Below are positions 6,420-60,803 of a stretch of 64,000 nt of DNA, in pieces. Under the pieces are notes generated by a model that saw nothing but the letters and a program-made list of their open reading frames with translations, was not told the origin of the DNA and searched no databases. The stretch spans positions 64,001-128,000 of the forward strand of contig CAVUXE010000003.1 in assembly GCA_963745235.1 (NCBI GenBank), in the 5' to 3' direction. The DNA comes from an uncultured Spirochaetota bacterium (GTDB lineage: Bacteria > Spirochaetota > Spirochaetia > SZUA-6 > Fen-1364). A program made the translations under genes and the position numbers. Position 1 is the stretch's first letter. Every line of letters begins with the position of its first letter.

Positions 6420-6456
6420 CTCTCCGGCTCAAGTCACAGGATAAAGCAAAGCCCTG

Positions 6457-15809: not shown

Positions 15810-15893
15810 GTGAGCTGAGCGCGCCCTTGCGGCCGCTGCTGTTTTGACCTATACCTGTCCCGTCCGAGCGAATGAGAAAAAAGTGAGCGTCCC

Positions 15894-20175: not shown

Positions 20176-20187
20176 CAGGAGAAATCC

Positions 20188-26906: not shown

Positions 26907-27018
26907 AAGACCCATTATAGCATTTTCTTTCCTTGTGTCCCCGGTTTCTATACCTTTGGTACGAGCACGCACATATCCTATTGCGTTCCGCAAAAGTCTG
27001 CAGGAGAGGAGAGTCACC

Positions 27019-28566: not shown

Positions 28567-28594
28567 ACCATGACCATATGAGAAAGGAGAGAGT

Positions 28595-30148: not shown

Positions 30149-30162
30149 AGCAGGCAACCGTC

Positions 30163-30196
30163 GTCGGGTCCCCGCCGGGGGACCCGACACCTTTTC
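30163..30196 (+). terminator. Strong intergenic hairpin after the SBP gene (mRNA stabiliser or partial terminator)
   Basis: GTCGGGTCCCC-GCCG-GGGGACCCGAC perfect 11-bp stem followed by ACCTTTTC. Confidence 0.7.
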
Positions 30197-30202
30197 CTTC
30201 CC

Positions 30203-35326: not shown

Positions 35327-35414
35327 GGCCGCCGCTCCGTCCCCGGCCGCGGCTGAAGCGCCGCTGAAAGCGCTGCCTTTACCCGCCCCCCTCTCCCCTG
35401 CTATCCTCGATTTC

Positions 35415-36494: not shown

Positions 36495-36498
36495 GAAA

Positions 36499-37536: not shown

Positions 37537-37537
37537 G

Positions 37538-45482: not shown

Positions 45483-45566
45483 AAGTGGTCAATGCCAACA
45501 ATTTATGTTGACGATGCTTACATCCTGGGTCATCTTGAACCCTGACAATATTGGCATCGCCAACAT
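45483..45566. promoter_or_regulatory. Three 19-bp operator-like dyads between the divergent tetR and epimerase genes
   Basis: AAGTGGTCAATGCCAACAA (45483), ATGTTGACGATGCTTACAT (45505), ATATTGGCATCGCCAACAT (45548). Confidence 0.65.
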
Positions 45567-45577
45567 AGGAGGACGGT

Positions 45578-46592
45578 ATGAGTGAAGGTCTCCAGGTAGT
45601 CTTTGGGACGGGGCCCGTTGGATGCGCAACGGCTGGCCGCCTGCTGGACAAAGGATTGCGCGTCCGGATGGTCAACCGAAGCGGCAGGCGTCCCTCTTTT
45701 TTCGCGCCGCGCTCCCCGGAGCAGGAAACGCGGCTTTCGGTCGCGGCCTGTGATGCAATGGATGAATCGGCTGTTCGCGCCGCGGCCGCGGGGGCGTCTC
45801 ACCTCTACAACTGCGCCCACGCGCCCTATCACCAGTGGGAGGCCGTCCTGCCGGTCCTCTATTCCAACCTGGAAAAAGCGGCCCTCGAGCAGAATGCCGT
45901 TTTCGCGGCTGCTCAGAACCTCTACATGTACGCGCGCGGCCTGGCAGTGATCAATGAACAGGCACGCGTGGATCCGCCGTCACGCAAGGGCCGGCTCGAT
46001 ACAGTCATTGCACGAAAGCCTCGAATCAGCCGGTGCCCGGGACGGCCTTCGGTGGACAACCGTCCGCGCTTCGGACTTCTACGGTCCGGGGGCCACCGAG
46101 CAGAGCCTGTTCGGGACACTCCGGTTCCTGGATCCACTGTTCGCGGGCAGGTCACCCATGCTCATCGGTGACATCGACCAGCCCCATACATTCACCTGCG
46201 TTGAAGACTACGGCGGCGCCCTTGCCACCGCGGCCCTCTCCCCCCAGGCCCTGGGCCGGGCGTGGATCGTTCCCAACGACCGCACGCTCACCACGCGCGA
46301 GGTCGCCGGGCTCTTTCTCTCCGCGGCGCGTCTCGACACGGGCCGCACACCGCGGATCCACACGGTCCCGCGCGCGGGCATAGCCCTCGCCGGGCTGTTC
46401 AATCCCGTGATCCACGAGGTCGTGGAGATGCTGTATCAAAAGGAGGAGCCGTATGTCGTGGACGGCAGCCGGTTCCGTGACGCGTTCGGATTCAGGCCGA
46501 CACCGCTGGAGGAGGGAGTGCGGAGCACCATCGAATGGTACAAGGCCATGAAAGCCAGCACCGCGAAAGCCGGGAGGAAGCTCGGGGGTTGA
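45578..46592 (+). CDS. NAD-dependent epimerase/dehydratase (atypical SDR), +1 indel near 45998
   Basis: VFGTGPVG, NLYMY, RASDFYGPG, EMLYQ. Confidence 0.85.
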
Positions 46593-46593
46593 G

Positions 46594-48129
46594 CTACGCC
46601 TGCAGGAAAGGGATGCTCACCGTGAACACGCTGCCCGCCCCAGGGGCGGACTCCACGGCAACCGTGCCCTGATGCAGCTCGGCGAGGCGCTTGACGAGGC
46701 TCAGGCCCAGGCCCGTGCCGGGGATGCTCGCGGTGAGCTCGTTCCTCGCGCGGTAGAACTCTTCGAAGACTTTCGCTTTTTCCGCGGGCGACATCCCGAT
46801 GCCGTCATCTCTCACGCTGACCGTCGCATAGATCCCCGCGCAACCCATGCTCACCTCGACGCGACCGCCCTCCCGGCCGTACTTGATGGCATTCTCCACG
46901 AGGTTGGAGAACACGATGGAGAGAGCCTCCCTGTCCGCAAGCACCAACGGGGCCGGCCCGCAGGGTGTCGGGGCATCGCAGACGGACACGGTTATCCGCT
47001 TTTCCGCGGCACGCTCGGCATAGGCTGCCGCGACGTCCTTGAGGATTGCTCCCATGTCCACAGGCGTGCGCTTCAGAGTGAAGTTCCCGGTCTGAATGGC
47101 CGTGAGGTTCAGAAGCTCATTCACCATTCCGCGCAGGGTCCGCACCCGCAGGAGTGACCTCTGGATCATGTGGCGCTCTTCCTCGGGGTTTTTCACGAGC
47201 ATTCCGCTCAGGATGAGGTTGAGCCAGCCTTCCGTGGCCGCCAGGGGGCTCTTCACCTCATGGGCAACCATGGAGACGAACATTGACTTCGCGGTCTCCA
47301 GCTTCTTGAGAGCGGTGATGTCGCTGAACACGGCCACGGCGCCGCTGGTCACCCCGCCCGGCTCGATCACGGGGCTTGCGTTCACCATGTATGTTTCCTT
47401 GCCGAGGGGGATCTCCCGGGAAAGGATCATGGGGCCGCCGGGGGAATCGATGATCAGCTGGAGGATCTCCTGGACGTCCGTATTGTGGATCTCCGCGAGG
47501 GGGAACGGGATCTCGTTTCTCGCGCACTGCGACAGGATGCGGGCCGCGGCGTCGTTTCGCAGCACGACCAGCTTTTCCATGTTGACTACCAGGATCCCGT
47601 CTGTCATGCAGGTGATGATGGTGTTGCTCTTGGAGCGCTCGGAGGCGAGCTCCAGGAGGCGCTTTTCCCTTTCCGCCAGGAGGCGCTTGGCGCTCAGCGT
47701 CAGGGCCCTTTTCTCCAGGCCGTTCTTGATTGCGAGGAGAAGCTCGTCCGCGGTGAACGGCTTGGGGATGAAGCTGTATGCGCCCTGGCGCGTCCCCTCC
47801 ACCGCTGTGTCGATAGTGGCATGTGCCGTGATGATGATGCAGACGATATCCTCATCACGCGCACGCACCTCGCGCATCAGCTCCAGGCCCGACATTCGCG
47901 GCATCTGCAGGTCTACCAGGAGGACGCTGAAAGGTCCTCTTTCCAGGAACTGCTCCAGCCCCGCCTTGCCGTCGCCCGCGGTGATGACGTCGTACCCTTC
48001 GGAGGAAAGGATCTTCCGGCAGCCCTCGCGGACCCCGAGCTCGTCATCCACCACCAGGATGCGCTCGGAGGCTTCTGCGCCCACGGGTTTTGCGCTCACC
48101 GGTTCTCCGCTCACTGGTTCCCCAGTCAC
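46594..48129 (-). CDS. Receiver-PAS-histidine kinase
   Basis: ILVVDDE..VDLQMP..KPF; AHEVKSPL; NLVENAIKY; GTGLGL. Confidence 0.92.
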   Translation of the reverse strand: MTGEPVSGEPVSAKPVGAEASERILVVDDELGVREGCRKILSSEGYDVITAGDGKAGLEQFLERGPFSVLLVDLQMPRMSGLELMREVRARDEDIVCIIITAHATIDTAVEGTRQGAYSFIPKPFTADELLLAIKNGLEKRALTLSAKRLLAEREKRLLELASERSKSNTIITCMTDGILVVNMEKLVVLRNDAAARILSQCARNEIPFPLAEIHNTDVQEILQLIIDSPGGPMILSREIPLGKETYMVNASPVIEPGGVTSGAVAVFSDITALKKLETAKSMFVSMVAHEVKSPLAATEGWLNLILSGMLVKNPEEERHMIQRSLLRVRTLRGMVNELLNLTAIQTGNFTLKRTPVDMGAILKDVAAAYAERAAEKRITVSVCDAPTPCGPAPLVLADREALSIVFSNLVENAIKYGREGGRVEVSMGCAGIYATVSVRDDGIGMSPAEKAKVFEEFYRARNELTASIPGTGLGLSLVKRLAELHQGTVAVESAPGAGSVFTVSIPFLQA

Positions 48130-48575
48130 CGCAGGAGCTCTTCAGCCTTTGCCAGCAGCGCCTGCGGGGAGACCGGCTTGTCGAAGAACGCATCCGCATG
48201 CATGGCCGCCAGGTCCTCCGCGGTCCGCGGATGAAAGTCGAAGCCCTTCTGGCTGGAGATGGCGGAGACAATGATGATCGGGGTGCCCGCGAAGCGCGGG
48301 TCGGTCTTCACCGCGCGCGCAAACGAGAAGCCGGAATCAAGGGCTTTCATCATCACGTCGCAGACAACAAGCGTCCGCCGGGCTCCCGTCTGCCCGGCGC
48401 CGAGGGCCGCCAGCGCCGACTGCGGATCGCAGTGGCAGGCCACCTGGTAGCCCCGTGCTTCGAAGATCCTCCGCTCCAGCTCAAGGAAGTCGGTGTCATC
48501 GTCCAGGAGAAGGATCAGCGCGCCTTGCGGCGCGGCGCCCCCTGTTCCGGCGCCTTGCTGGCCGGCCGGGTGCAT
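48126..48575 (-). CDS. Stand-alone response regulator receiver
   Basis: LLDDD, VCDVMM, VSA, DKP. Confidence 0.88.
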   Translation of the reverse strand: MHPAGQQGAGTGGAAPQGALILLLDDDTDFLELERRIFEARGYQVACHCDPQSALAALGAGQTGARRTLVVCDVMMKALDSGFSFARAVKTDPRFAGTPIIIVSAISSQKGFDFHPRTAEDLAAMHADAFFDKPVSPQALLAKAEELLR

Positions 48576-48967
48576 CAGGGCTCCCTTCCAAGGGCCTTGT
48601 TGACCATGGCAAGGAGCAGCTGGGGGTCCACCGGCTTTTCCAGCAGTGCATCAACGGGGAGCCACGTGTGATCCGGTTCCAGTCGGAACGGGATGGAATC
48701 ATTCACCGAGGTGATCATGACGAGGGGAATGGTGCGCGTGATCTCGGAGTTCCGAAGCTCCCGAGAGACGTCGAAGCCGTCGTTGGGGCTTTCCATCACC
48801 ATGTCCAGGATGATGAGGTCCGGACGTTTCCTCTCCACCTCGTCCAGGCACTGCTTTCCATTGAAGGCCACCCGCACCGTGTAGCCGTTTTCCGTCAGGA
48901 GGGCCCGGTTCATCTCCACGAAATCCGCGTCATCGTCCACAAGAAGCACCGTCTTATCCCACCCCAT
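48575..48967 (-). CDS. Stand-alone response regulator receiver
   Basis: LVDDD, ILDMVM, ITS, EKP; GGAGGAG RBS. Confidence 0.9.
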   Translation of the reverse strand: MGWDKTVLLVDDDADFVEMNRALLTENGYTVRVAFNGKQCLDEVERKRPDLIILDMVMESPNDGFDVSRELRNSEITRTIPLVMITSVNDSIPFRLEPDHTWLPVDALLEKPVDPQLLLAMVNKALGREP

Positions 48968-50966
48968 GGATCTCCTCCCTGGTCCTGTCGCCAACGGGGA
49001 TGCGCACGTGGAAGGTTGTACCCTTTCCCACCTCGCTGTCCACCGTGATGTCTCCCGCATGCATCTTCACGACCCCGTACACGATGGACAGCCCCATGCC
49101 GCTGCCTTTGCCCAGCTGCTTCGTCGTGTAGAAGGGAGTGAAGATGTCCTTGAGCGTTTCCTGCGGCATCCCGCTGCCCGTGTCCCTCACGCGGAGCACG
49201 GCGAGGTCACCGGATTCCGAGAGGCCGACGCTGACCACCACCTCGCCGCCCGCCTCCCCGTTGATCGCGTCGATGCCGTTCTGCACGAGGTTCACGAGCA
49301 TCTGGCGGATCTGCTCTCCGTCCGCGCTGACCCGGGGCATTGCCTCCTGGACCTCTGCCCGCACCCGCGTCCCGCTGTCGGCAAGTTTCATGTTCATGGA
49401 ATCAGCGATGTCATGGGCAATGAGCCCCAGGTCAGTTGGGGTCTTCACCACCCGCGACTGTCGGGCGAAATCCAGGAGGCCGCGCATGATGGACCTGCAC
49501 CGGTTTGCCTCGTTCACGATCATCTGGATGTCCTCCGACTCCGCATCCCCCTCGCGGTGGGCCTTCAGGAGCATGTGGGAGTACAGGAGAATGGTGGAAA
49601 GCGGGTTGTTGATCTCGTGGGCCACCCCCGCGGAGATCTGGCCCATGGAAGCGAGGCGCTCCGTCTGGACCAGCCTGTCCTGCGTGGCCTGGTGGGACTT
49701 CTGGAGCACCGCGAGGGTCATCTCCAGCTCTTCCACCAGGTAGGGAAGGCACATGCTCACCTCGGCAATCCCCTGGCACACGGCAATGGCCTTCTCCCTG
49801 CAGGACGGGTAGCCGCATGACCCGCAATCCAGCTGGTCCTCGGGCCCGAACTTGCGCATGAGGCGCAGCGTGGCTTCAATGTCCTGCTCGGCCGGCTGCG
49901 GCAGGACCACCGCGTCCTCCGCGAACTCCCTGCGCAGGTCGATGTCGGCAAACTCCGCAATTGTCTCCCCCATGTCGCGGCTGGGCTGGCTCTCGTTCCG
50001 CGCATGGATGTAGTCCGTGAGCATCTCCCTGCGCGCCACGGCGCCCATGGTCCCCGGCATCCGGGGCCCGTTCAGACAGCCTTCGCAGAAAAGGACGTCG
50101 AACATGCGCGCCTTGCTCCTGCCTTCGGCCAGCTCCCTCAGCGCGGAGATGACCCGGTCCTTCCCCTCGGTGACGACGACGGTGTTCTGCAGGATGTCAG
50201 CGTCGAATCCGGCGGCGCGAAGAAGGCCTCCGGAGAGCGGGATGGACCGACCGAGGTACGACGCCGGACCGTCGAAGTCCGACGGCGGGAACGACGTCGG
50301 GTCCACGGCTGCCGTCCGCCACAGGGCGGAAAGCTCCTCATAGGTCAGCACCGCGTCCACGGTCCCTTGAACGAACCTGTCCCGTATTTCCGCCTTCTTG
50401 GCGATACAGGGACCGACGAATACCACCCGCACTCCCGCCCCGAACCTCCGCTTGATTGCGCGCGCGGTCGCGATCATGGGGGAGACGATGGGAGCCAGCG
50501 CGCCGTGCAGGGAAGGCAGGTATTTCTGGACGTAGGACACGATGGCGGGGCACGGGGTGCTCACCACGGGCTGGCTTGCCCTGATGGCCTGGCGAGCCAG
50601 GATGGCGTACTCCTGGCTGATCAGCTCCGCCCCGAATGCCACTTCCCAGACCTGGGAGACTCCCAGGGCTCGCACCGCGGACACGATCCTGCCCGGCTCG
50701 ATTCCCGCGAATGCCACCGGGAACGAAGGGGCGAGACAGGCAAACACCCGCTCGCCCGCTTCCAGCATCCTGGCAACCGCCATGGAGGAGTCTTCGATCC
50801 TTTTCGCCTTCTGCGTGCAGACTTTCACGCAGTTGCCGCAGGCGATGCATTGCTCCGCGATCACCGTGGCCTGCCCGGAGATGACCTTGATTGCCTTTGC
50901 CGGGCATTCCCGCACGCAGGTGTAGCAGCGGCGGCACTTCTCGGGAATTGTCGAGACTATCCCCAT
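48954..50966 (-). CDS. Sensory [FeFe]-hydrogenase (group C1-like) fused to a histidine kinase
   Basis: 2x[4Fe-4S]; H-domain motifs STPCPA, GPCIAKKAE, LFCEGCLNG; DCGSCGYPSC FeS domain; AHEINNPL and HATPase. Confidence 0.9.
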   Translation of the reverse strand: MGIVSTIPEKCRRCYTCVRECPAKAIKVISGQATVIAEQCIACGNCVKVCTQKAKRIEDSSMAVARMLEAGERVFACLAPSFPVAFAGIEPGRIVSAVRALGVSQVWEVAFGAELISQEYAILARQAIRASQPVVSTPCPAIVSYVQKYLPSLHGALAPIVSPMIATARAIKRRFGAGVRVVFVGPCIAKKAEIRDRFVQGTVDAVLTYEELSALWRTAAVDPTSFPPSDFDGPASYLGRSIPLSGGLLRAAGFDADILQNTVVVTEGKDRVISALRELAEGRSKARMFDVLFCEGCLNGPRMPGTMGAVARREMLTDYIHARNESQPSRDMGETIAEFADIDLRREFAEDAVVLPQPAEQDIEATLRLMRKFGPEDQLDCGSCGYPSCREKAIAVCQGIAEVSMCLPYLVEELEMTLAVLQKSHQATQDRLVQTERLASMGQISAGVAHEINNPLSTILLYSHMLLKAHREGDAESEDIQMIVNEANRCRSIMRGLLDFARQSRVVKTPTDLGLIAHDIADSMNMKLADSGTRVRAEVQEAMPRVSADGEQIRQMLVNLVQNGIDAINGEAGGEVVVSVGLSESGDLAVLRVRDTGSGMPQETLKDIFTPFYTTKQLGKGSGMGLSIVYGVVKMHAGDITVDSEVGKGTTFHVRIPVGDRTREEIHGVG

Positions 50967-51059
50967 ATGCCCACCGCAGCGGCAGCCTCTTTCTTCACTG
51001 CCGTCACAAACGGTCCCAACCCTTGCCAGCTACACATGCGCACCCTCGCGGTGCCTTTC

Positions 51060-52830
51060 CTACACCCGCTCCCTCGCGACGTACTTCGTGTGGAGCAGAT
51101 GGTGGGATTTCTCCCCGAGGGGCTTGTGAAGGTATTGATCGTAGATTGCCTTCACCTCGGGGTTGTTGTGAGACTTGCGGATGGGTTTCCCCTCGTCCTC
51201 CTTGTAGATGGCGGCGATCCGGGCTTTGCGCACGTCATCCGTAGTGAGCCGCGGCTGACCGCCGCCGCCGATGCACCCACCCGGGCACGTCATGACCTCG
51301 ATGAAGTGATATTGCTCGCCGGAGTGAATCCGCTCGATGAGCTTCCGGGCGTTCCCCAGGCCGTGCGCCACGCCGACACGCACCGTCACGCCCTCCAGGA
51401 AGGACCATTCGGGCACGGTTCCTTCGATCTTCACTGCGGCTTCCTTGATCCCCTGCAGCCCGGCGATGGGAGCAATGTGCAGGTTCTCGAAAGGCAGGGT
51501 CCTTCCGGTCACGATCTCGTACACGGTTCGCAGGGCAGCTTCCATCACGCCGCCGGTGTTGGCGAAGATGTCCGCCGCTCCCGACGACGCGCCCAGGATG
51601 CTGTCCATGGCGCCATCCGGCAGGCTCGTGAAATCTATCCCGGCCTGCTTGATCATACGCCCCAGCTCACGGGTGGTGAGGACCACGTCAACGTCACGCG
51701 CGCCGCTCGCGCACATCTCGGGCCTCTGGGACTCGTACTTCTTGGCCGTGCAGGGCATGATCGAGACCACGAACATGTCTTCGGGTTTCTTCCCGATCTT
51801 CTCTGCAAAGTAGGTCTTTGCCACGGCGCCGAACATCTGCTGCGGAGACTTGCACGTCGAGATGTTCGGCAGGATGTCGGGCCAGAAGTGCTCCGCGTAC
51901 CTGATCCACCCGGGCGAGCAGCTGGTGAACATGGGAAGCGCCACCTGCTTCTTGTCCACGAGCGCTCCCTTGAGGCGCGTCAGCAGCTCCGTTCCTTCCT
52001 CGATAATGGTCAGGTCCGCGGTGAAGTTCGTGTCGAACACCCGGTCGAACCCCATCTGCCGGAGCGCGGTGACCATCTTGCCCGTGACGAGCGTTCCCGG
52101 CGCATAGCCGAAGCACTCACCCAGGGCGGCCCGGATGGCGGGAGCGGTCTGAACCACCACGGTCTTCTTCGGGTCGTCCAATGCCTCCCACACGCTGGCA
52201 ATCTCGTCGCGCTCGCTGATTGCGCCCACGGGGCACACGGCGGCGCACTGTCCGCATTGCACGCAGACCACCTCGGAGAGCGGCTGCGCGAACGCCGGGG
52301 CGATCATGGCCTTGAAGCCCCTCCCCTGCGGGAAGATGGCCCCCACTCCCTGCGTCTCCCCGCACACCGTGACGCAGCGCCGGCAGGACACGCACTTGGC
52401 GGTGTCACGCACGAGCGCCGGAGTGCTCAGCGTCGGTCATGCGCCTGCTCTTCGCTCCGGCGAAGGTGACCTGGCGGATGCCCAGGTCACTCGCAATGGC
52501 CTGCAGCTCGCAGTCGACGTTGCGGTCGCAGGTCTGGCAGTCCCCTTCGTGGTCGGAGAGGATGAGCTCAACCACGGTTCGCCGCGCGTTCCTGGCCCGG
52601 GGAGAGTTGGTTTGCACCTCCATTCCCTCCGCCGCCATGGTCACGCAGGAGGGCATCAAGGTCTTTGCGCCTTTCACCTCCACCAGGCACACGCGGCAGC
52701 TCCCGATGGCCTGCACGCTCTTGAGGTAGCACAGGGACGGGATCTTGATCCCCGCCAGCCGGGCGGCTTCCAGCAGGTTCGTCCCGGCCGGGACCTGGAT
52801 CTTCCTGTTGTCGATGGTCAAAGCTGGCAT
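51060..52830 (-). CDS. hydA: Group A [FeFe]-hydrogenase catalytic subunit (HydA/HndD), +1 indel near 52430
   Basis: [2Fe-2S], His-ligated and 2x[4Fe-4S] motifs; FTSCSPGW, MPCTAKKYE, EVMTCPGGCIGGGGQP. Confidence 0.95.
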
Positions 52831-52831
52831 G

Positions 52832-55800: not shown

Positions 55801-55930
55801 CAATGGAAACGGCATCCGTGAGCTCGTGCGCCGCCAGCTCCTTGACGAGCGCGTCGCGCACCCTTTGCGCTCCCGAGGAGACGCAGCCCGTGCCGAAGCA
55901 CATGAGGAGATGCATCCGTGTCGTCTTCAT
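52832..55930 (-). CDS. hydB: NuoF-like HydB/HndC subunit fused to a GltD/NfnB-like FAD/NADPH oxidoreductase; three indels (near 54681, 53292, 53140)
   Basis: GRGGAGFP, NADEGDPGAFMDR, FVCGEET, GGPSG, ESCGKCTPCR; then CQNACP, CARVCFHPCEGKC, GAGPAG, GGGNAA..YRR, FAGGD, CLRCD. Confidence 0.9.
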
Positions 55931-56349
55931 GCTCTTGCCCTCCCCTGCTTCTTCTCAGCGTCCGAGGGCTCGCTGCCCACGTACACGACATAGGCACCCG
56001 CCGACTTGCCCGCCAGGGTCTGATGGAAGACTTCCCTGACGGTCGCGCCGTCCAGGTGGCCGTACAGCACGGGCTGAGCGCCGAGGGTCTCCACTGTCAT
56101 CACCGGCTCGTGCTCGCACGCCCCGATGCATCCCGAGGTGGTGAGCCTGATGTCGGTGCGGCCGCTCTTCTCCAGCTCTTCGGCCAGCGCGTTCACCACG
56201 TCCCTGGCTCCGCTTGCAATACCGCAGGTGCCCATATGCACGGTGAAGCACATCCTGTAGCCGTCCTCTCGCAGGGCCGCTTTCTTCTGCGCCTCGTCAC
56301 GAATGGCCAGGATGTCCTGGAGACTCCGTATCTTTTTTGTCTCAGCCAT
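55927..56349 (-). CDS. Thioredoxin-like [2Fe-2S] ferredoxin subunit (HndB/HydD)
   Basis: MGTCGIASGA, SGCIGACEHEP. Confidence 0.88.
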   Translation of the reverse strand: MAETKKIRSLQDILAIRDEAQKKAALREDGYRMCFTVHMGTCGIASGARDVVNALAEELEKSGRTDIRLTTSGCIGACEHEPVMTVETLGAQPVLYGHLDGATVREVFHQTLAGKSAGAYVVYVGSEPSDAEKKQGRARA

Positions 56350-56971
56350 GGACCTTCACTCCCTTCTTTGCCGTCGCGCGGGCGCCCCTGGCCGCGGGCT
56401 TTCGTGGCCTGGCCGCTTTCCCCGGTTCAGCGGCGGCCGGCTCCCGGTAGCGCGCAAGTATCTCGCGGATCTTCGCCGGCCGCACGCGTTTGTGCACCTC
56501 TTCATCAATGGAGACGGCCGGCGCCAGGCCGCAGGCGCCGAAACAGCGGGCCACTTCGAGACTGAACATCCCGTCTTTCGTGGTTTCCCCCACCTCGATG
56601 CCGAGCTCCTTGCGCATGGCCTCCAGCACCTGCTTGCCGCCCCTCACGTAGCAGGCGGTCCCCAGGCAGACGCGGATCACGTGCCTGCCGCGCGGCTGCG
56701 TGGAGAAAAACGCGTAGAAGCCGACGACCCCCGCCACCTCGCTGTAGGACTTGCCCATCTCCCGGGCAATCCTTTTCAGCACGTGCTCCGGCAGGAAGCC
56801 ATAGATGCCCTGCGCCATCTGCAGCACGGGGATGAGGGCACCGGGCTTGTCCCGGTGCTCCGTCAACACCTCCCCGAGCCTGTCCTGCAGCTCGGCCTCG
56901 GTCGCCTGCCCGCAGCAGGCGTCGGAAACGCGCGGCATACCGCGCTGCGCCGCACCAGTCACCTCGTTCAT
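56342..56971 (-). CDS. hydC: NuoE-like [2Fe-2S] subunit (HydC/HndA)
   Basis: LIPVLQ, CLGTACYVRG, CFGACGLAP. Confidence 0.93.
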   Translation of the reverse strand: MNEVTGAAQRGMPRVSDACCGQATEAELQDRLGEVLTEHRDKPGALIPVLQMAQGIYGFLPEHVLKRIAREMGKSYSEVAGVVGFYAFFSTQPRGRHVIRVCLGTACYVRGGKQVLEAMRKELGIEVGETTKDGMFSLEVARCFGACGLAPAVSIDEEVHKRVRPAKIREILARYREPAAAEPGKAARPRKPAARGARATAKKGVKVHG

Positions 56972-56984
56972 GCTGTTCTCCTCT

Positions 56985-57530
56985 CTATCTGGTCACGTCC
57001 AGGGCGTCGAGCCCTTCGGCAATTTTCTCCCGCATGCGCCGCGCCAGGCCGATCTCCCCCCGCTGGCCCGCCGGCAGCGAACGGGCTATGTCCGTGGTGC
57101 TCACGCGCCATTCCCGGTCAGCCACCCGCAGCAGGCTGCGCAGCTCCACGCCCGGGTTCGTGCACACCACGGATGCAAGAGTCCCGGCGAGATCTCCCAG
57201 CGGGCTGCGGTCCACGCTGGAAAGAGGGATGCTCGCCTGGACGCTGAGCCCACCCAGCGGGGACCTGCCCAGCTGGAAGGTCCCACCGGCCTGCTCGGCG
57301 CGAAACTTGAAGAGGCTCAGGCCCAGCCCTGTTGTCTTTCCCTCCTTGGTGGAGAAGAAAGGGTCAGCGGCGACGTCTCCGGAGACGCTCAGGCCCGGAC
57401 CATCGTCTTCCACGCGGATTGTCATGATGTCCCGGGACGGCTCTTCCTCCAGGGACACCGTGATGACCGCGGCGCCGGCACGGATGGAGTTCTCCAGCAG
57501 GTCGAGGATGTGCAGGGATATCTCACGCAA
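56985..57530 (-). CDS. Hydrogenase-associated HATPase_c (kinase-like) protein lacking an H-box
   Basis: TTG start; REISLHILDLLENSIRAGA, DDGPG, DPFFST, GLGL, DRSPLGD. Confidence 0.85.
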   Translation of the reverse strand: MREISLHILDLLENSIRAGAAVITVSLEEEPSRDIMTIRVEDDGPGLSVSGDVAADPFFSTKEGKTTGLGLSLFKFRAEQAGGTFQLGRSPLGGLSVQASIPLSSVDRSPLGDLAGTLASVVCTNPGVELRSLLRVADREWRVSTTDIARSLPAGQRGEIGLARRMREKIAEGLDALDVTR

Positions 57531-58284
57531 AGGAGCACCTCCTCCCATCCGCGCCCCGGAGGGCCAGGGCAAGCTCCGCAAAGGCGGGCTCGCGAACGTC
57601 CAGCACGGTAAAGCCTGACCCGATGTCGCTGAGGAAGTGCCCGTCCGAGGAGCACAGGAGCGGCAGCCCGTGCTCCTGCCACGCCGAGGCCGTGCCCCGC
57701 GCCGCTCCCGCCGCCGACACCTCGAGGCCGTCGAACGGCACGTCGGGGGGAAGGAAGCCGAGCTGGCCGGGCACGCTGAAGCTGCGCCTGTCCATGTGCG
57801 CGGCCACGGCAAGCCCGCCATGTCTATGAATCAGCGTCACGGCGTCGCACAGGCTGAAGAGGCTCGCGGCCGCGAGCATCTTCGGCTCGATCCCCGTGAT
57901 GTTTCCGTCCGCATCCACGAGCTCCTGCTCGCAGCTGCGGCTGCCGGACGCCGGGGCGCGGGACAACAACGGCCGCCAGGCGGGAAGCCCCTCCCGCACC
58001 TCCTCTGATGCCGCGAAAGCGGCTGCTTCGTCCGGGAAGAAGCCCAGGACGTGGACTTCCTCCCGGGTGGTGATCTCCATCCCGGGAATGACACGGGGGC
58101 CGCCGAGTGACTCGGAGGCCTTCCTGACCGCAAGGACATTCCCGGCGCTGTTGTGGTCGCACACCGCTATCATCGCCATCCCCTTTTCCATTGCTTCACG
58201 GACGATGGCGCGGGGCCGCATCTGCCGCGACGCGCAGGGAGAAAGGACCGTGTGGATGTGCAGGTCCGCGGCGCATCGGATCAT
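57523..58284 (-). CDS. PHP-domain phosphoesterase
   Basis: DLHIHT.LSPC, CDHN, EITTREEVH, AAH, SSDGH. Confidence 0.9.
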   Translation of the reverse strand: MIRCAADLHIHTVLSPCASRQMRPRAIVREAMEKGMAMIAVCDHNSAGNVLAVRKASESLGGPRVIPGMEITTREEVHVLGFFPDEAAAFAASEEVREGLPAWRPLLSRAPASGSRSCEQELVDADGNITGIEPKMLAAASLFSLCDAVTLIHRHGGLAVAAHMDRRSFSVPGQLGFLPPDVPFDGLEVSAAGAARGTASAWQEHGLPLLCSSDGHFLSDIGSGFTVLDVREPAFAELALALRGADGRRCSFA

Positions 58285-58637
58285 CCCTTCGTTTTTCCTC
58301 GAAGCCCCAGCGCGTAGAGCTTCCCCGCCGTGTCGAAGGTCGACTCCCGGGTGGCGAACAGGCTGATTTTCTCCGCGGCCGCCCTGGCGCGCACGTCCGC
58401 GGGAGGCCTCATTCCCGAGGCAAAAACAACCGCCGCAAGGCCGGCATGGACGGCTACCGCCACGACATTCATGTGAACCTGGATGGTGATGAGCAATCCG
58501 CCGGCCGGAGCGTTGGCAAGCACGTCGCTGAGGAGGTCGGAGGCGTGCGCCGCATCCACGTTTCCCGCTTCGTCCATGGGAAGCTCGGTGGTGAGGTTCT
58601 CCAGGCCGAGTGCGTCCGCGATCTGTCTCAGCTTCAT
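58281..58637 (-). CDS. DRTGG/HPr-kinase-N-like small protein
   Basis: MKL.QI...L.L, SDLLSDVLA, NVVAVA. Confidence 0.82.
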   Translation of the reverse strand: MKLRQIADALGLENLTTELPMDEAGNVDAAHASDLLSDVLANAPAGGLLITIQVHMNVVAVAVHAGLAAVVFASGMRPPADVRARAAAEKISLFATRESTFDTAGKLYALGLRGKTKG

Positions 58638-60199
58638 CTGTGCTTCTCCGTGAATGGGCAATCTGCCCGGTCTGCCCGGCCCATGACGACATCCTCCGCG
58701 AATGCCGCGCAGGAGGGAGCGCCGCAGGAGCCGCAGTCCCTGCCGGGCAGGGAGCGCGTTTCCCCGTCTATGCGGGAGAGCTTCCGAATTGCCTCACCCA
58801 TGGCGGCATCCAGCCTCAGGCCCGGACGCTGCGCGAAAGGCATTGCCCGCGCGGCGACCCCCGCAGGCACGCCCGGCGTCGCAGGAACGGTCTGCCACAT
58901 GCCGGCGAGCTCCGGCTGCGAGCCAAGGAGAGGGGATGCGGAGCATCCTCCCGCGCAGAAGCGAAGGTCCAGGACGGCCGCGCGGCCCAGCGCTCCGGTC
59001 TCAGCGCGGGAAAGGACCCTCATCACGCTGCGGGCACCGCTTGCAGCCAGCTCGCCGGGCTGCAGGGACGCGAGGGGGGGAACGGTGACACCCAGGGGGC
59101 GACGGACGGCAGGCTGGACGTCCAGAAGAGGCCGGATGGCTGCCTTCAAAGCAGCCGGAGAAACGACTGTCAGCCTTTCCGTGAGGCTGGACCGGGCGCA
59201 CTCCCCGTATTGTCCCGGGCATGCGGCCACAAGGAATACTGGACGCAAAGGGAACTCCTCGCAGGCTGTTTCGGCTGGTGAATGAAAGACGCAAAGATTC
59301 GGAATGAGGGAGGGGAACCTGCTTTCGATCACCGCCGCAACAGGCGGACATAGCGGAGGGATTCGAGGGAGAGGGAGCTCCCGTGCCGCGGCTTCGCGCC
59401 GGGCCTCCGCCAGAAGCGACTCCTCCCACTCCTCGAGCAGCCTCATCTCGGTGAACCCGAGCTCGCGCAGCGCGGAGAGAACCTGCTCCGGGGGGCGGAT
59501 GCCGAAAAGGGCAGCGAGCAGCCCGCTGGGTGCAAGGAGAAGTGCGTCCGCCGGGACACCCGGCAGGGGCGCGCGCGGGATGTCAAAGGCCCTGTCAGGG
59601 CACTCCTCGATGCACGCAGTGCAGCCGATGCACAGGTGCTCCAGGAGAACGGGGCGCCGGTCCCGGGCGCGAATTGCTCCCACGGGGCAGGCAAAGATGC
59701 ATCTCCGGCAGCCTCTGCAGCGATCCGTGTCCACCACCAGGGGTGTTGACGAAACGGGAGCCTGTGCCGGAGAGGGCGAGCCCGTCCCGAAGAGAATCGT
59801 GGACCTGATGCGCGTGCCTCGGCCCACCCTGGTCTCGATCTGGAAATGGTCGCTGTTTCGACGGATATTCGGAAGGCCGAGGCCGGCTCCGAACCCCATC
59901 TGCCGGGCCTGCTCGGAGGCCGTGGACCAGCCCTCCTGCAAGGCAAGCTCGACATCGGGTATCCCCGGGCCCTCGTCAGCAACCTCCAGGTCGAGCTTCG
60001 TCTCATCCACGCGGGCCCACAGGGTGCCGGTGCGGGCGTGGATGACCACGTTCATCTCCGCTTCGTAGGCGGCAATCATTGCGCGTCGCAGGACGGAGGC
60101 ATCCACGCCGAGCTTCGAAAGCTGCTCCTTGAGCTTCCGCGCCGCAAGGCCGGCGGAATCGAAGTCCCCTCCCGCAATTCGAAAGCTCAGCGTGATCAT
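58634..60199 (-). CDS. RsbT-like Ser/Thr kinase fused to 2x[4Fe-4S], a degenerate [FeFe]-hydrogenase-like domain and a C-terminal FeS domain
   Basis: YEAEMNVVIH, DEGPGI, GWST, GFGAGLGLPN; CRGCRRC..CP and CIGCTAC..CP; PLCPP, AACPGQ, FCAGGC; LPGRDCGSCGAPSC. Confidence 0.85.
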   Translation of the reverse strand: MITLSFRIAGGDFDSAGLAARKLKEQLSKLGVDASVLRRAMIAAYEAEMNVVIHARTGTLWARVDETKLDLEVADEGPGIPDVELALQEGWSTASEQARQMGFGAGLGLPNIRRNSDHFQIETRVGRGTRIRSTILFGTGSPSPAQAPVSSTPLVVDTDRCRGCRRCIFACPVGAIRARDRRPVLLEHLCIGCTACIEECPDRAFDIPRAPLPGVPADALLLAPSGLLAALFGIRPPEQVLSALRELGFTEMRLLEEWEESLLAEARREAAARELPLPRIPPLCPPVAAVIESRFPSLIPNLCVFHSPAETACEEFPLRPVFLVAACPGQYGECARSSLTERLTVVSPAALKAAIRPLLDVQPAVRRPLGVTVPPLASLQPGELAASGARSVMRVLSRAETGALGRAAVLDLRFCAGGCSASPLLGSQPELAGMWQTVPATPGVPAGVAARAMPFAQRPGLRLDAAMGEAIRKLSRIDGETRSLPGRDCGSCGAPSCAAFAEDVVMGRADRADCPFTEKHR

Positions 60200-60549
60200 T
60201 GCGGCGGCACCTTCTCCGCGCCCAGGCACTGCGCGGCGCGCGCGCAAAGGTTTTCACGGCTTGCCCGCGATACCAGGAGCGCGGCGCCGGCTTCGCGGGC
60301 GAGTGCCACGACCCCCGCGTCAGGTTCCTTTCCATCAGAAAGACAGATCCCCGGAACGTCCATCAGCTCCGCCACCCGGATAAGCTGACCATTGGCAAGC
60401 GAGGTGATAAGAAGTGTGCCGGGACCGGCGTTTGCGATGAGGTCGCTCATTGTCGCTCCGCCGTAGACGCGGAGGACATCCGGGTTTGCCGGTCCGCTCG
60501 GGACGACCAGGCGGGCTTCGATGGCGCTAGCAAGCTGTTCGACCTTCAT
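60196..60549 (-). CDS. DRTGG-like small protein, first gene of the hydrogenase operon
   Basis: MKVEQL, TMSDLIA, LLITSL.N.QLIRVAEL, GKEP. Confidence 0.82.
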   Translation of the reverse strand: MKVEQLASAIEARLVVPSGPANPDVLRVYGGATMSDLIANAGPGTLLITSLANGQLIRVAELMDVPGICLSDGKEPDAGVVALAREAGAALLVSRASRENLCARAAQCLGAEKVPPQ

Positions 60550-60588
60550 GAAGCCTTGATCCAATTCGACAGGATCGCTTCGATATAT

Positions 60589-60604
60589 TGCAAGCGTTGT
60601 GCCA
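60589..60604 (-). promoter_or_regulatory. sigma54 -24/-12 promoter of the hydrogenase operon
   Basis: TGGCAC-AACGC-TTGCA on the minus strand, matching TGGCAC-N5-TTGCW exactly, 40 nt upstream of ATG 60549. Confidence 0.85.
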
Positions 60605-60755
60605 ATCGTGAATTCAGTCTCGATCAAGTTGGCGGGCTTCGAGATCGAAATATCACAATGGGATCAAGTCTTTCCGCTGTAATGAGATGTGATCGTCAGG
60701 CTTCAGGGGGAATTCCGGCATTCAAAAAGGGCTAAACGTCCTCAGGCATCGTTTG

Positions 60756-60789
60756 TGGGCATATCTTGCACATGGGCGACTTATGCACA
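60756..60789. promoter_or_regulatory. Tandem 17-bp dyads, candidate enhancer (UAS) for a sigma54 activator
   Basis: TGGGCATATCTTGCACA directly followed by TGGGCGACTTATGCACA, about 150-185 bp upstream of the -24 box. Confidence 0.6.
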
Positions 60790-60803
60790 CCCGGGCGCGT
60801 CAG

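What the first reader, a model, noticed from the sequence alone, without database searches (positions are those of the whole stretch)
46594..60789. Integrated H2 locus with three different hydrogenase-family proteins and two phosphorylation systems
Seen: 13 co-oriented, mostly overlapping genes. They encode DRTGG, kinase-hydrogenase-like fusion, DRTGG, PHP, HATPase, HydC, HydD, HydB-GltD, HydA, sensory hydrogenase-HK, two receivers and a receiver-HK. Known: DRTGG/kinase/PHP genes flank multimeric [FeFe]-hydrogenases in Firmicutes but are largely uncharacterised. Inference: catalysis, a Ser/Thr switch and a His-Asp relay are combined under sigma54 control in a spirochaete, a combination I do not know to be described.
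Basis: partly seen in the sequence, partly recalled or inferred. Interest (0 to 1): 0.85.

Follow-up and report, generated by a model that had tools for sequence, protein, structure and literature searches.

The report
Hydrogenase operon with built-in hydrogen sensors
A spirochaete gene cluster places a hydrogen-converting enzyme, two hydrogenase-like sensor proteins and two phosphorylation relays behind one sigma-54 promoter; it is real and conserved in several phyla, but untested, and parts of it were already catalogued.

Summary
The 13 co-oriented minus-strand genes are there (46594-60549), behind the window's only exact sigma-54 promoter match (60589-60604). As written, HydB-GltD carries three single-base insertions and HydA one. 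They are probably assembly errors: other genes in the window are split too, and a 98-100% identical metagenome protein reads through all three HydB-GltD sites. The cassette is not unique. Of 27 related loci with enough flank, 21 carry all nine upstream genes in the same order (17 Spirochaetota, 3 Planctomycetota, 1 labelled Nitrospiraceae). Of 21 strict sigma-54 motifs in all fetched loci, 18 lie just before the first operon gene. The catalytic core matches 'sub-type I BfuABC' (NuoF fused to a GltD-like FAD module; mSystems 2024). The sensor-kinase has the residue changes typical of sensory [FeFe] hydrogenases. The other hydrogenase-like protein has a SpoIIAB-like kinase head that is predicted to dock the first DRTGG protein at an invariant serine (ipSAE 0.70, best control 0.00). 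Likely working: an [FeFe] counterpart of the [NiFe] H2-sensor/kinase/sigma-54 circuit, plus a Ser-phosphorylation switch. No activator is encoded nearby and nothing has been tested. I file it as a new variant of a known kind, of moderate interest.

The parts
60589..60604 (-). sigma-54 (-24/-12) promoter, TGGCACAACGCTTGCA, about 40 nt upstream of the g1 ATG
   Evidence: Only exact match in the window. An equivalent strict motif lies 12-46 nt before g1 in 16 of 22 loci that have g1. 18 of 21 strict motifs in all loci lie before the first operon gene.
60196..60549 (-). g1, DRTGG-like protein (117 aa) with invariant Ser35
   Evidence: Pfam DRTGG 15.1 bits, below cut-off; 11 of 18 orthologues match. 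Model pLDDT 92, best fold match 2ioj (DRTGG), TM 0.77. Paralogue of g3: hhalign 98.4%, E 6e-15.
58634..60199 (-). g2, SpoIIAB-like GHKL kinase head fused to 2x[4Fe-4S] ferredoxin, a hydrogenase-like domain and a C-terminal 4-Cys FeS motif (521 aa)
   Evidence: Pfam. Invariant Cys pattern in 17 orthologues. Fold: residues 1-140 match SpoIIAB (1til_E, TMt 0.85); the rest matches [FeFe]-hydrogenases (8ryh, E 3e-12).
58281..58637 (-). g3, DRTGG protein (118 aa) with invariant SDLLSD motif
   Evidence: Pfam DRTGG E 1.9e-5, 24.9 bits against cut-off 25.2; 22 of 23 orthologues match; alignment A4.
57523..58284 (-). g4, PHP-family phosphoesterase (253 aa), DLHIHT metal motif
   Evidence: Pfam PHP 28.1 bits (cut-off 26.4) and PHP_C; orthologue N-termini conserved.
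56985..57548 (-). g5, stand-alone HATPase_c (GHKL) protein (187 aa)
   Evidence: Pfam HATPase_c E 2.5e-12. Kept together with g3 in loci that lack g1, g2 and g4.
56342..56971 (-). g6, HydC/BfuC (NuoE-like 2Fe-2S)
   Evidence: PF01257 E 5e-49; NuoE/HoxE NCBIfam hits.
55927..56349 (-). g7, HydD/BfuD, small thioredoxin-like 2Fe-2S protein (140 aa)
   Evidence: PF01257 partial match, 24.9 bits against cut-off 24.8.
52832..55930 (-). g8, HydB/BfuB: 2Fe-2S + NuoF (FMN, SLBB, 4Fe-4S) fused to GltD-like DPD_II 2x[4Fe-4S] + FAD/NAD(P). Broken here by three +1 frameshifts (near 54680, 53290, 53140).
   Evidence: Pfam/NCBIfam on the pieces; frames; intact 1014-1096 aa ORFs in 7 of 8 loci checked; P0241 reads through all three sites.
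51060..52830 (-). g9, HydA, catalytic [FeFe]-hydrogenase (M3-type N-terminus, H-domain, SSU domain). Broken here by one +1 frameshift near 52420.
   Evidence: NF040763 scores 166.6 + 695.6 bits on the two pieces. Motifs TSCSPGW, MPCTAKKYE, EVMTCPGGC. Intact 584-592 aa ORFs in 8 of 8 loci.
48954..50966 (-). g10, HydS-type sensory hydrogenase domain fused to a HisKA/HATPase_c histidine kinase (670 aa)
   Evidence: Pfam; AtoS/ZraS-like kinase core; 120 of 120 listed relatives share the architecture; motifs.
48575..48967 (-). g11, receiver-only response regulator
   Evidence: PF00072 E 8e-19; the acidic pocket, Asp, Ser/Thr and Lys are readable in the sequence.
48126..48575 (-). g12, receiver-only response regulator
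   Evidence: PF00072 E 1.2e-11; sequence. Orthologues sit in this position after g10 in 50 of the 60 loci tabulated.
46594..48129 (-). g13, receiver-(PAS-like linker)-HisKA-HATPase_c kinase (511 aa)
   Evidence: Pfam; PnpS/PhoR-like over residues 140-507. Found after g10 and the receiver(s) in 25 of the 27 long-flank loci; L005 has too little downstream DNA and L023 has only a partial match.

Best explanation
The locus is one sigma-54-driven operon. It encodes a multimeric NAD(P)H-linked [FeFe]-hydrogenase together with two hydrogenase-derived sensors that control it at two levels.

(1) Enzyme (shown by homology). HydA (g9) has a full H-cluster site, with Ser at the proton-relay position. It works with HydC (g6), HydD (g7) and a HydB (g8) in which the usual ferredoxin-side clusters are replaced by a GltD/NfnB-like 2x[4Fe-4S]-FAD-NAD(P) module. 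This is the 'sub-type I BfuABC(D)' kind. Inferred: it couples H2/H+ to NADH and NADPH.

(2) Transcriptional loop (inferred). The H-domain of g10 keeps the four cluster cysteines and the P2 lysine, and has the three substitutions typical of sensory HydS. It reports H2 (or the reduction state of its Fe-S chain) to its own AtoS/ZraS-type kinase core. Phosphate passes to the receivers g11 and g12 and to the receiver of g13. The kinase half of g13 then acts on an unlinked NtrC-type activator, which opens the conserved sigma-54 promoter before g1. This works like the [NiFe] sensor/kinase/sigma-54 circuit, with sensor and kinase fused.

(3) Post-translational switch (inferred). The SpoIIAB-like head of g2 is gated by g2's own Fe-S/hydrogenase-like body. 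It binds the DRTGG protein g1 and phosphorylates its invariant Ser35. The PHP protein g4 removes the phosphate. g3 (DRTGG) and g5 (GHKL ATPase) form a second pair. The output of this switch is unknown.
For: - Domain content.
- Co-conservation: of 27 loci with at least 9.6 kb upstream and a full-length g10, 21 have all of g1-g9 in the same order and strand.
- g13 and one to three receiver genes follow g10 in 25 of those 27 loci; L005 lacks downstream DNA and L023 has only a partial g13 match.
- Promoter: unique exact site in the window; strict motif before g1 in 16 of 22 loci; 18 of 21 strict motifs in 1.86 Mb (both strands) of loci lie before the first operon gene, including L020 (first gene g3) and L038 (first gene g6).
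- The g10 kinase core is closest to the NtrC-partner kinases AtoS and ZraS (PDB 9jfj, E 2.5e-37).
- Sensory signature of g10: Pro, Gly and Leu/Phe at the positions of CpI C299, M353 and M497, with the lysine kept, against the rule given in PMC10055695 (passages).
- In Peptococcaceae and Desulfosporosinus loci the same sensor module is fused directly to a sigma-54 activator. In L056 it is followed by a strict sigma-54 motif and [NiFe]-hydrogenase genes. This independently links the sensor module to sigma-54.
- g2 fold: SpoIIAB head plus hydrogenase body; its ATP-binding boxes and 16 Cys are invariant in 17 orthologues.
- g1 and g3 are DRTGG paralogues whose invariant Ser residues align.
- Complex prediction, g2(1-150)+g1: ipSAE 0.70 in each of 3 runs, best of 3 controls 0.00. 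That mark was reached by 116 of 157 solved complexes and 2 of 215 mismatched pairs (counts hold only roughly, because my own alignments were used). Runs agree in at least 98% of contacts; partner pLDDT 87. The interface holds g1 residues 32-36 and g2 residues 41-49 and 101-111, the ATP-lid region. The g1 fold is DRTGG, not STAS, so this is not a simple recall of SpoIIAB-SpoIIAA.
- g1, g2 and g4 are lost together while g3 and g5 stay in L020, L043 and L052.
Against: - No sigma-54 activator and no DNA-binding output lies in the locus or in the 10 kb downstream flanks of the orthologous loci. tblastn with the window's one NtrC-type gene hit only L026, L054, L055, L056 and L059. That gene, at 15876-17021, is 30 kb away and shows no HTH.
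- The upstream flanks of the related loci were not visible, because they are cut near g1.
- g10 has CxxC where catalytic enzymes have Cx3C in motif P3. Whether it binds a [2Fe] subcluster is unknown.
- g2 lacks the P2 lysine, so it may be a redox sensor rather than an H2 sensor.
- I saw no HydE/F/G maturase gene among the window ORFs scanned.
- In this window g8 and g9 are frameshifted.
- The 93-nt gap before g10 could hold a separate promoter. The scans found no sigma-70-like site, and no terminator-like site in an intergenic gap on the minus strand, so they decide nothing.
- The complex is a model, not a measurement.
- There are no expression or biochemical data for any member of the cassette in the papers I could search.
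Confidence: 0.55

Rival explanations
1. The two hydrogenase-like proteins sense redox rather than H2. On this reading g10 and g2 report the reduction state of the ferredoxin/NAD(P)H pools through their Fe-S chains, with no [2Fe] subcluster. The locus would then be a redox-balancing operon, not an H2-responsive one.
For: g2 lacks the P2 lysine and has only a partial Pfam H-domain match, profile positions 27-105 of 245. g10 has a CxxC P3 variant. PMC11406978 (section 7) reports that P1-P3 were hard to find in its HATPase-bearing 'C1' proteins. No HydEFG genes were seen among the window ORFs scanned.
Against: g10 keeps all four cluster cysteines, the lysine, and the substitution pattern of HydS proteins that do bind an H-cluster (PMC10055695 passages). 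All four H-site Cys of g2 are invariant across phylum labels. Maturases may lie elsewhere in the genome.
Confidence: 0.2
2. In this organism the catalytic genes are real pseudogenes. Four genuine +1 mutations would have inactivated HydB-GltD and HydA while the sensory genes stay intact, so the locus is a decaying or repurposed sensor cassette.
For: Four insertions lie within 2.4 kb, while the other roughly 10 kb of the locus shows none. All four run in the same direction.
Against: Split genes occur elsewhere in the window too: EPSP synthase in three pieces, PspA, an SBP_bac_5 binding protein and FapA. Several related long-read MAG loci show similarly fragmented hits. P0241 is 98-100% identical to the four g8 pieces and reads through all three g8 sites to the same C-terminus. 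GC3 stays high in each shifted frame.
Confidence: 0.1
3. g1-g5 are not a phospho-switch. They would instead be structural, assembly or chaperone-like accessory proteins of the hydrogenase. The His-Asp genes g10-g13 would form a separate transcription unit that merely sits next to the operon.
For: PMC9304861 (Fig. 1 legend, passage) says the 'hisK' and 'hydD' genes in the A. mobile operon are not part of the purified holoenzyme, so their role there is open. There is a 93-nt gap before g10. L026 and L036 have g10, a receiver and g13 without any hyd genes upstream.
Against: The ATP-binding boxes of g2 and g5 are conserved. The predicted g2-g1 docking puts the invariant Ser at the ATP lid. The PHP metal motif is conserved. 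The g9-g10 gap is only 14-135 nt in the 8 loci measured. g10 follows HydA directly in 24 of the 27 long-flank loci; the exceptions are L036, which has no hyd genes, and L037, where other genes lie between.
Confidence: 0.15

Closest known systems
[NiFe] group 2b regulatory hydrogenase circuit (HoxBC-HoxJ-HoxA of Cupriavidus; HupUV-HupT-HupR). The class is named in the HydDB table, PMC5037454 (passage); the gene names and sigma-54/NtrC details are recalled.
   Same: A hydrogenase-derived sensor talks to a histidine kinase. The hydrogenase genes appear to be read from a sigma-54-type promoter.
   Different: Here the sensor is an [FeFe] H-domain fused to the kinase in one chain. Two receiver-only proteins and a second receiver-kinase are interposed. 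No NtrC-type regulator is encoded nearby.
Putative sensory [FeFe] hydrogenases, group C (TmHydS; HydDB C1 'histidine kinase-linked', C3 'phosphatase-linked')
   Same: N-terminal ferredoxin clusters, an H-domain with non-Cys, small and non-Met residues at the positions of C299, M353 and M497, and a C-terminal 4-Cys cluster (PMC10055695, PMC13104023 abstract start).
   Different: g10 has no PAS domain; HisKA/HATPase_c follows directly. P3 is CxxC. The HydDB subclass could not be run here.
Sub-type I BfuABC(D) of Hydrogenedentota and relatives (PMC11406978); fused hydB of Kiritimatiellia (bioRxiv 10.64898/2026.10.06.756941)
   Same: BfuB/HydB in which DPD_II plus an FAD/NAD(P) domain replaces the B3/B4 clusters. 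P1 has Ser at the fifth position. Homologues are reported in Spirochaetota and Planctomycetota. Group C genes are reported next to A3 genes.
   Different: In the parts I read, those papers do not mention DRTGG, PHP, response regulators or sigma-54 (find). Their figures and most supplements were not visible to me.
SpoIIAB-SpoIIAA / RsbW-RsbV partner switching (PDB 1til, 1th8)
   Same: The g2 head has the SpoIIAB fold (TMt 0.85) and its ATP boxes. A small partner protein is predicted to present a serine to the ATP lid.
   Different: The partner has a DRTGG fold, not STAS. The candidate phosphatase is PHP, not PP2C. The kinase is fused to an Fe-S/hydrogenase-like body. No sigma factor target is evident.
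HydS-type sensor fused to a sigma-54 activator
   Same: The same Fer4 + H-domain + FeS sensor module (36-40% identity to g10 residues 1-413), with output through sigma-54.
   Different: These are one-component regulators: AAA+ and HTH_8 sit in the same chain. In L056 the downstream genes encode a [NiFe] hydrogenase.

Membership tests
Catalytic [FeFe]-hydrogenase, group A (HydA) | H-cluster motifs P1 (TSCxP), P2 (MPCxxKxxE), P3 (ExMxCxxGCxxG) | tested here: met
   TSCSPGW, MPCTAKKYE and EVMTCPGGCIGGGGQP in g9. Ser replaces the relay Cys, as reported for most Bfu sub-types (PMC11406978, section 7).
Catalytic [FeFe]-hydrogenase, group A (HydA) | One intact reading frame | tested here: not met
   One extra base near 52420 splits g9 in the window. 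Orthologues are intact, 584-592 aa, in 8 of 8 loci.
Bfu/HydABC sub-type I (PMC11406978) | BfuB = NuoF core with DPD_II 2x[4Fe-4S] and an FAD/NAD(P) domain in place of B3/B4 | tested here: met
   Complex1_51K, SLBB, NADH_4Fe-4S, Fer4_20 and Pyr_redox_2 lie in series over the g8 pieces. There are single ORFs of 1014-1096 aa in 7 of 8 loci. P0241 shows continuity.
Bfu/HydABC sub-type I (PMC11406978) | Electron bifurcation or NAD(P)H-linked H2 turnover | not testable with these tools
   Needs the purified enzyme.
Sensory [FeFe] hydrogenase (group C, HydS) | Cluster-ligating Cys and P2 Lys kept; non-Cys at C299, small residue at M353, non-Met at M497 | tested here: met
   g10: STPCPAIV, GPCIAKKAE, LFCEGC, invariant in 12 sequences. 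The rule comes from PMC10055695 (passages).
Sensory [FeFe] hydrogenase (group C, HydS) | C-terminal PAS domain, as in TmHydS | tested here: not met
   No PAS hit in g10 at E<=0.001; HisKA and HATPase_c follow the FeS motif.
Sensory [FeFe] hydrogenase (group C, HydS) | HydDB subclass (C1/C2/C3) and H2-dependent signalling | not testable with these tools
   HydDB is not available here, and there is no biochemistry.
Two-component His-Asp systems | H-box His and ATP-binding domain in the kinases; Asp pocket, Ser/Thr and Lys in the receivers | tested here: met
   HisKA + HATPase_c in g10 and g13; Response_reg in g11, g12 and g13. The residues are readable.
Sigma-54-dependent operon | -24 GG / -12 GC element at the correct spacing before the first gene, and conserved | tested here: met
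Sigma-54-dependent operon | A cognate bacterial enhancer-binding protein | tested here: not met
   None in the locus or in the downstream flanks of the orthologous loci. The upstream flanks of the loci were not visible. rpoN was not looked for.
SpoIIAB/RsbW partner-switching module | GHKL Ser-kinase fold with N, G1 and G2 boxes | tested here: met
   HATPase_c_2 E 1.1e-8 and TIGR01925 E 3.7e-10; fold match 1til_E, TMt 0.85; boxes invariant.
SpoIIAB/RsbW partner-switching module | STAS-domain substrate and PP2C phosphatase | tested here: not met
   The partner candidates have a DRTGG fold, and the phosphatase candidate is PHP. It may work like the family but is not a member.
DRTGG domain (PF07085) | Pfam match above the gathering score, or the DRTGG fold | tested here: inconclusive
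   The window copies score 15.1 and 24.9 bits against a cut-off of 25.2. Orthologues match in 11 of 18 and 22 of 23 cases at E<=0.01. The g1 model matches 2ioj with E 6.5e-7. The fold is met; the window sequences alone fall below the cut-off.
PHP phosphoesterase (PF02811) | Pfam match above cut-off and the N-terminal HxH metal motif | tested here: met
   28.1 bits against 26.4, plus PHP_C. DLHIHT or a close variant (DMH[IV]HT, DLHIHS) is present in all 19 orthologue N-termini listed.

The most novel reading that the evidence does not exclude
The cassette is a self-contained, horizontally mobile 'H2-stat' with two new signalling mechanisms.

(a) It would be the first [FeFe] counterpart of the [NiFe] H2-sensor/kinase/sigma-54 circuit. 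The H-cluster domain would drive a fused histidine kinase directly, through a four-protein relay.

(b) It would be a new kind of partner switch. DRTGG proteins replace STAS proteins as serine-phosphorylated partners of a SpoIIAB-like kinase, a PHP enzyme replaces PP2C, and the kinase is gated by its own hydrogenase-derived Fe-S body.

Together these would tune a flavin-doubled (FMN + FAD) hydrogenase both transcriptionally and post-translationally.
Probability: 0.3. Interest if true: 0.8.

Novelty: new variant of a known kind. Interest (0 to 1): 0.55.

Why it matters
Whether group C [FeFe] 'sensory' hydrogenases really sense H2, and how they pass the signal on, has been open since the class was named. 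HydDB still lists C1-C3 as putative (PMC5037454).

This cassette offers a readable output for that question: a fused histidine kinase, defined receivers and a conserved sigma-54 promoter. H2-dependent autophosphorylation and promoter activity could therefore be assayed directly.

It also gives a concrete, testable role to the DRTGG, PHP and GHKL genes that travel with multimeric hydrogenases. The docking prediction names a serine to mutate.

The fused FMN+FAD HydB bears on how these enzymes couple H2 to NADH and NADPH. Because the cassette occurs in abundant anaerobic Spirochaetota and Planctomycetota, it is relevant to H2 budgets in peat, sediment and soil.

Tried and rejected
- Terminator and sigma-70 promoter scan of 45500-63000. 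It found no sigma-70-like site, and no terminator-like site in an intergenic gap on the minus strand. This tells nothing about operon limits.
- Search for a sigma-54 activator near the cassette, by tblastn with the window's NtrC-type gene against 61 loci. It hit only non-orthologous loci (L054, L055, L056, L059) and an unrelated spot in L026.
- The upstream co-oriented hybrid kinase 60804-62714 was considered as part of the system. It could not be tested, because the related loci are cut about 0.1-0.7 kb before g1.
Searches found nothing relevant. PMC5886521 only lists an unrelated PHP gene. PMC6288185 has no passage on regulators.
- Supplement text of PMC11406978 searched for DRTGG, PHP, response regulator, histidine kinase and sigma-54. 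It returned only unrelated KEGG rows. The file was cut when stored, and the PDF figures (S4, S5) were not visible, so the full architecture may be drawn there.
- ESM Atlas for g2. It gave same-architecture clusters labelled Spirochaetota and Actinomycetota, and no new lead.
- First Pfam pass on longer ORF versions of g1 and g3 gave no hit at E<=0.001. This was resolved with refined starts and family-level scans.
- A g8c query piece and a g11 query piece were cut in the wrong frame. Their hits were ignored. g11-type receivers were counted together with g12.
- HydDB classification could not be run.

Full report
WHAT IS IN THE SEQUENCE. The window has about 64% G+C, so long spurious ORFs abound. 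A GC3 frame plot, Pfam and NCBIfam pick out 13 consecutive genes on the minus strand, from 60549 down to 46594. In order they are:
- g1, DRTGG-like
- g2, HATPase_c_2 + two Fer4 + partial Fe_hyd_lg_C + PF04060 FeS
- g3, DRTGG
- g4, PHP
- g5, HATPase_c
- g6, NuoE-like HydC
- g7, small 2Fe-2S HydD
- g8, NuoF core fused to a GltD-like Fer4_20/Pyr_redox_2 module
- g9, HydA
- g10, Fer4 + Fe_hyd_lg_C + FeS + HisKA + HATPase_c
- g11 and g12, receiver only
- g13, receiver + HisKA + HATPase_c

Start codons were refined. Neighbouring genes overlap or abut, except for gaps of 13 nt (g5/g6), 1 nt (g8/g9) and 93 nt (g9/g10). About 40 nt before the g1 ATG lies TGGCACAACGCTTGCA. This is the only exact match to the sigma-54 consensus in the window; with up to two mismatches there are 20 matches against 26.6 expected. 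A co-oriented PAS-HisKA-HATPase-receiver hybrid kinase ends 255 nt upstream of g1, at 60804.

FRAMESHIFTS. The coding frame steps 0>1>2>0 within g8 and 1>2 within g9. At each of the four sites the window has exactly one base more than L001, L024, L002, L013 and L042, and at three of the four sites also than L003.

I read these as assembly errors, for three reasons:
- Other genes in the window are split in the same way. EPSP synthase is in three pieces, and PspA, an SBP_bac_5 binding protein and FapA are each in two.
- Several related MAG loci show similarly fragmented hits.
- P0241 is an 814-aa protein from a 5.7-kb metagenome contig. It is 98-100% identical to the four g8 pieces, and it reads straight through all three g8 sites to the same C-terminus.

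Intact orthologues measure 1014-1096 aa for HydB-GltD in 7 of 8 loci checked (L005 is broken) and 584-592 aa for HydA in 8 of 8. A real, recent pseudogenisation is not excluded. I give it about 0.1.

ORIGIN. The best relatives of g10 (up to 93% identity) and of g2 carry names such as 'MAG: Spirochaetia bacterium'. The closest loci are Spirochaetota MAGs. The window's flank beyond g13 holds a 213-aa ORF, a TetR gene, a cadherin-like protein, a HAD hydrolase, a PAS hybrid kinase and an M42 peptidase. It is syntenic with L001, L002, L003 and L024. The genome is therefore a relative of those MAGs, and the assignment does not rest on a transferred cassette alone.

THE CASSETTE IS WIDESPREAD. All 120 listed relatives of g10 (at least 61% identity) share its four-domain architecture. 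A scan of one genome per species with alignment A1 gave 61 loci. L001-L052 are orthologues at 52-92% identity. Their labels are Spirochaetota (most), Planctomycetota, Verrucomicrobiota, Nitrospiraceae, Deltaproteobacteria, Myxococcota, Hydrogenedentota, Poribacteria, Omnitrophota and one 'Bathyarchaeia'.

I ran tblastn with each window gene against these loci. Of the 27 loci with at least 9.6 kb upstream and a full-length g10:
- 21 hold all of g1-g9 upstream, in the same order and strand. By label, 17 are Spirochaet*, 3 are Planctomycet* and 1 is Nitrospiraceae.
- L020 and L043 lack g1, g2 and g4 but keep g3 and g5-g9. The shorter locus L052 shows the same pattern.
- L023 keeps only g8-g9.
- L038 keeps g6, g8 and g9.
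- L036 has no hyd genes.
- L037 is rearranged.

One to three receiver genes and g13 follow g10 in 25 of these 27 loci. L005 has too little downstream DNA, and L023 has only a partial g13 match. The same result means the locus is not a peculiarity of this genome.

SIGMA-54. A strict motif, TGGCA[CT]-N5-[TC]TGC[AT], lies 12-46 nt before the g1 start in 16 of the 22 loci that have g1. Four more have one-off variants, and L034 has too little upstream DNA. In the 1.86 Mb (both strands) of all loci the strict motif occurs 21 times. Of these, 18 lie just before the first gene of the operon, whichever gene that is: g1 sixteen times, g3 in L020 and g6 in L038. This is strong comparative support for a sigma-54 promoter.

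The activator is missing. tblastn with the window's only NtrC-type gene (15876-17021; receiver + AAA+, no HTH found) hit nothing in the orthologous loci. The hits were L054, L055, L056 and L059, plus an unrelated spot in L026. Upstream flanks were not visible.

A useful side result came from L054 (Peptococcaceae) and L056 (Desulfosporosinus). There, the same Fer4/H-domain/FeS module is fused in one 736/740-aa ORF to Sigma54_activat, an AAA lid and HTH_8. In L056 this ORF is followed by a strict sigma-54 motif and by [NiFe]-hydrogenase small and large subunit genes. The sensor module is thus wired to sigma-54 in another lineage, in one-component form.

THE THREE HYDROGENASE-FAMILY PROTEINS.
- HydA has TSCSPGW, MPCTAKKYE and EVMTCPGGC. 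The site is complete, with Ser at the proton-relay position, as reported for most Bfu sub-types (PMC11406978, section 7).
- g10 has STPCPAIV, GPCIAKKAE and LFCEGC, invariant in 12 sequences. The cluster cysteines and the lysine are kept. Pro, Gly and Leu/Phe stand where catalytic enzymes have Cys299, Met353 and Met497. This is the pattern PMC10055695 (passages) describes for sensory HydS. It differs from TmHydS in lacking PAS and in having a CxxC spacing.
- g2 aligns with g10 over about 430 residues (24% identity, E 8e-11) and with HydA (E 1e-11). Its model (pLDDT 84.7) matches [FeFe]-hydrogenases over residues about 150-521 (8ryh, E 3e-12) and SpoIIAB over residues 1-140 (1til_E, TMt 0.85). 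Sixteen Cys are invariant in 17 orthologues, including the four H-site positions, but the P2 lysine is absent. It may therefore hold only the cubane.

THE SER-PHOSPHORYLATION MODULE. g1 and g3 are paralogues (hhalign 98.4%, E 6e-15). Their invariant serines align: MSDLI in g1 and LLSDVL in g3. The g1 model (pLDDT 92) matches the DRTGG protein AF1212 (2ioj, TM 0.77) and the CBS-DRTGG region of a pyrophosphatase. No STAS protein was among the hits listed.

Complex prediction with g2(1-150) and g1, both supplied as alignments, gave ipSAE 0.70 in each of three runs against 0.00 for the best of three controls. That mark was reached by 116 of 157 solved complexes and 2 of 215 mismatched pairs; these counts hold only roughly because my own alignments were used. 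Contacts agreed in at least 98% of cases, and partner pLDDT was 87. The interface includes g1 residues 32-36 and g2 residues 41-49 and 101-111, which cover the N-box helix and the ATP lid. This supports binding but does not show it.

The co-loss of g1, g2 and g4, with g3 and g5 retained, suggests a substrate/kinase/phosphatase triad and a separate DRTGG/GHKL pair. The g3-g5 pair was not tested.

WHAT IS ALREADY KNOWN.
- HydDB lists [FeFe] C1 'histidine kinase-linked', C3 'phosphatase-linked', A3 'bifurcating' and [NiFe] 2b 'histidine kinase-linked ... activates two-component system' (PMC5037454, table passages).
- PMC11406978 (section 7 read in full; passages of sections 6, 8 and 9) defines sub-type I BfuABC. 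Its BfuB has DPD_II plus FAD/NAD(P) in place of B3/B4. The paper reports homologues in Spirochaetota, Planctomycetota, Verrucomicrobiota, Kiritimatiellota and Pseudomonadota. It notes that 21 of 53 HATPase-bearing 'C1' genes, and nearly all 'C3' genes, lie next to A3 genes.
- A 2026 preprint on Kiritimatiellia (passages) reports the fused hydB in 163 genomes.
- PMC6052044 (passage) lists A3, C1 and C3 genes in the spirochaete Rectinema cohabitans.
- PMC9304861 (Fig. 1 legend) notes that 'hisK' and 'hydD' in a Bfu operon are not part of the holoenzyme.

None of the passages I read mentions DRTGG, PHP, the receiver relay or sigma-54. My searches found no paper that describes the full architecture or tests any part of it. 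Subscription journals, figures and most supplements were outside my reach.

VERDICT. It is overstated on uniqueness. This is a conserved, multi-phylum, uncharacterised cassette whose enzyme core and sensor adjacency are already catalogued. The regulatory wiring appears not to be described: the sigma-54 promoter, the four-protein His-Asp relay and the DRTGG/SpoIIAB-like/PHP module. I rate it a new variant of a known kind, interest 0.55.

Noticed in passing
L054:10001-12211 and L056:3647-5869, with L056:6032-8770: A HydS-type sensor module (Fer4 + Fe_hyd_lg_C + FeS) is fused in one ORF to a sigma-54 activator (AAA+, lid, HTH_8) in Peptococcaceae CEB3 and a Desulfosporosinus MAG. In L056 it is followed by a strict sigma-54 motif and by [NiFe]-hydrogenase small and large subunit genes. 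This looks like a one-component [FeFe]-type sensor controlling a [NiFe] enzyme.
   Followed up: partly
window 25627-27293 (-), 20176-20881 (+), 28574-30444 (+), 3470-6428 (-): EPSP synthase is split into three frames. PspA, an SBP_bac_5 binding protein and FapA are each split in two. This points to indel errors across the whole window, not only in the hyd genes.
   Followed up: partly
window 60804-62714 (-): A co-oriented PAS-HisKA-HATPase-receiver hybrid kinase (CckA-like by NCBIfam) lies directly upstream of the sigma-54 promoter. Whether it belongs to the system could not be tested, because the related loci are cut before this point.
   Followed up: no
window 15876-17021 (+): This is the only NtrC-type gene in the window (receiver + sigma-54 AAA+ + lid, 382 aa). 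No HTH_8 was found in it or in the following ORFs. It is either an HTH-less activator or another truncated gene.
   Followed up: partly
L043:1-9985: A Thermoguttaceae locus carries two hydC/hydB sets in tandem before HydA, one with the GltD-like extension and one shorter. It lacks g1, g2 and g4. The Kiritimatiellia preprint describes similar tandem arrays.
   Followed up: no
L037 (record labelled Candidatus Bathyarchaeia): A rearranged but recognisable cassette (HydB, HydA, g1, g2, g4, g10, a receiver, g13) sits in a MAG labelled archaeal. This could be misbinning or gene transfer.
   Followed up: no
window 35322-38563 (+): Three tandem M42 glutamyl-aminopeptidase paralogues.
   Followed up: no
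window 54680, 53290, 52420 (-): Three of the four extra bases lie in or next to GATC, CCGG or CCTGG. A link to methylation-related base-calling errors is my speculation only.
   Followed up: no
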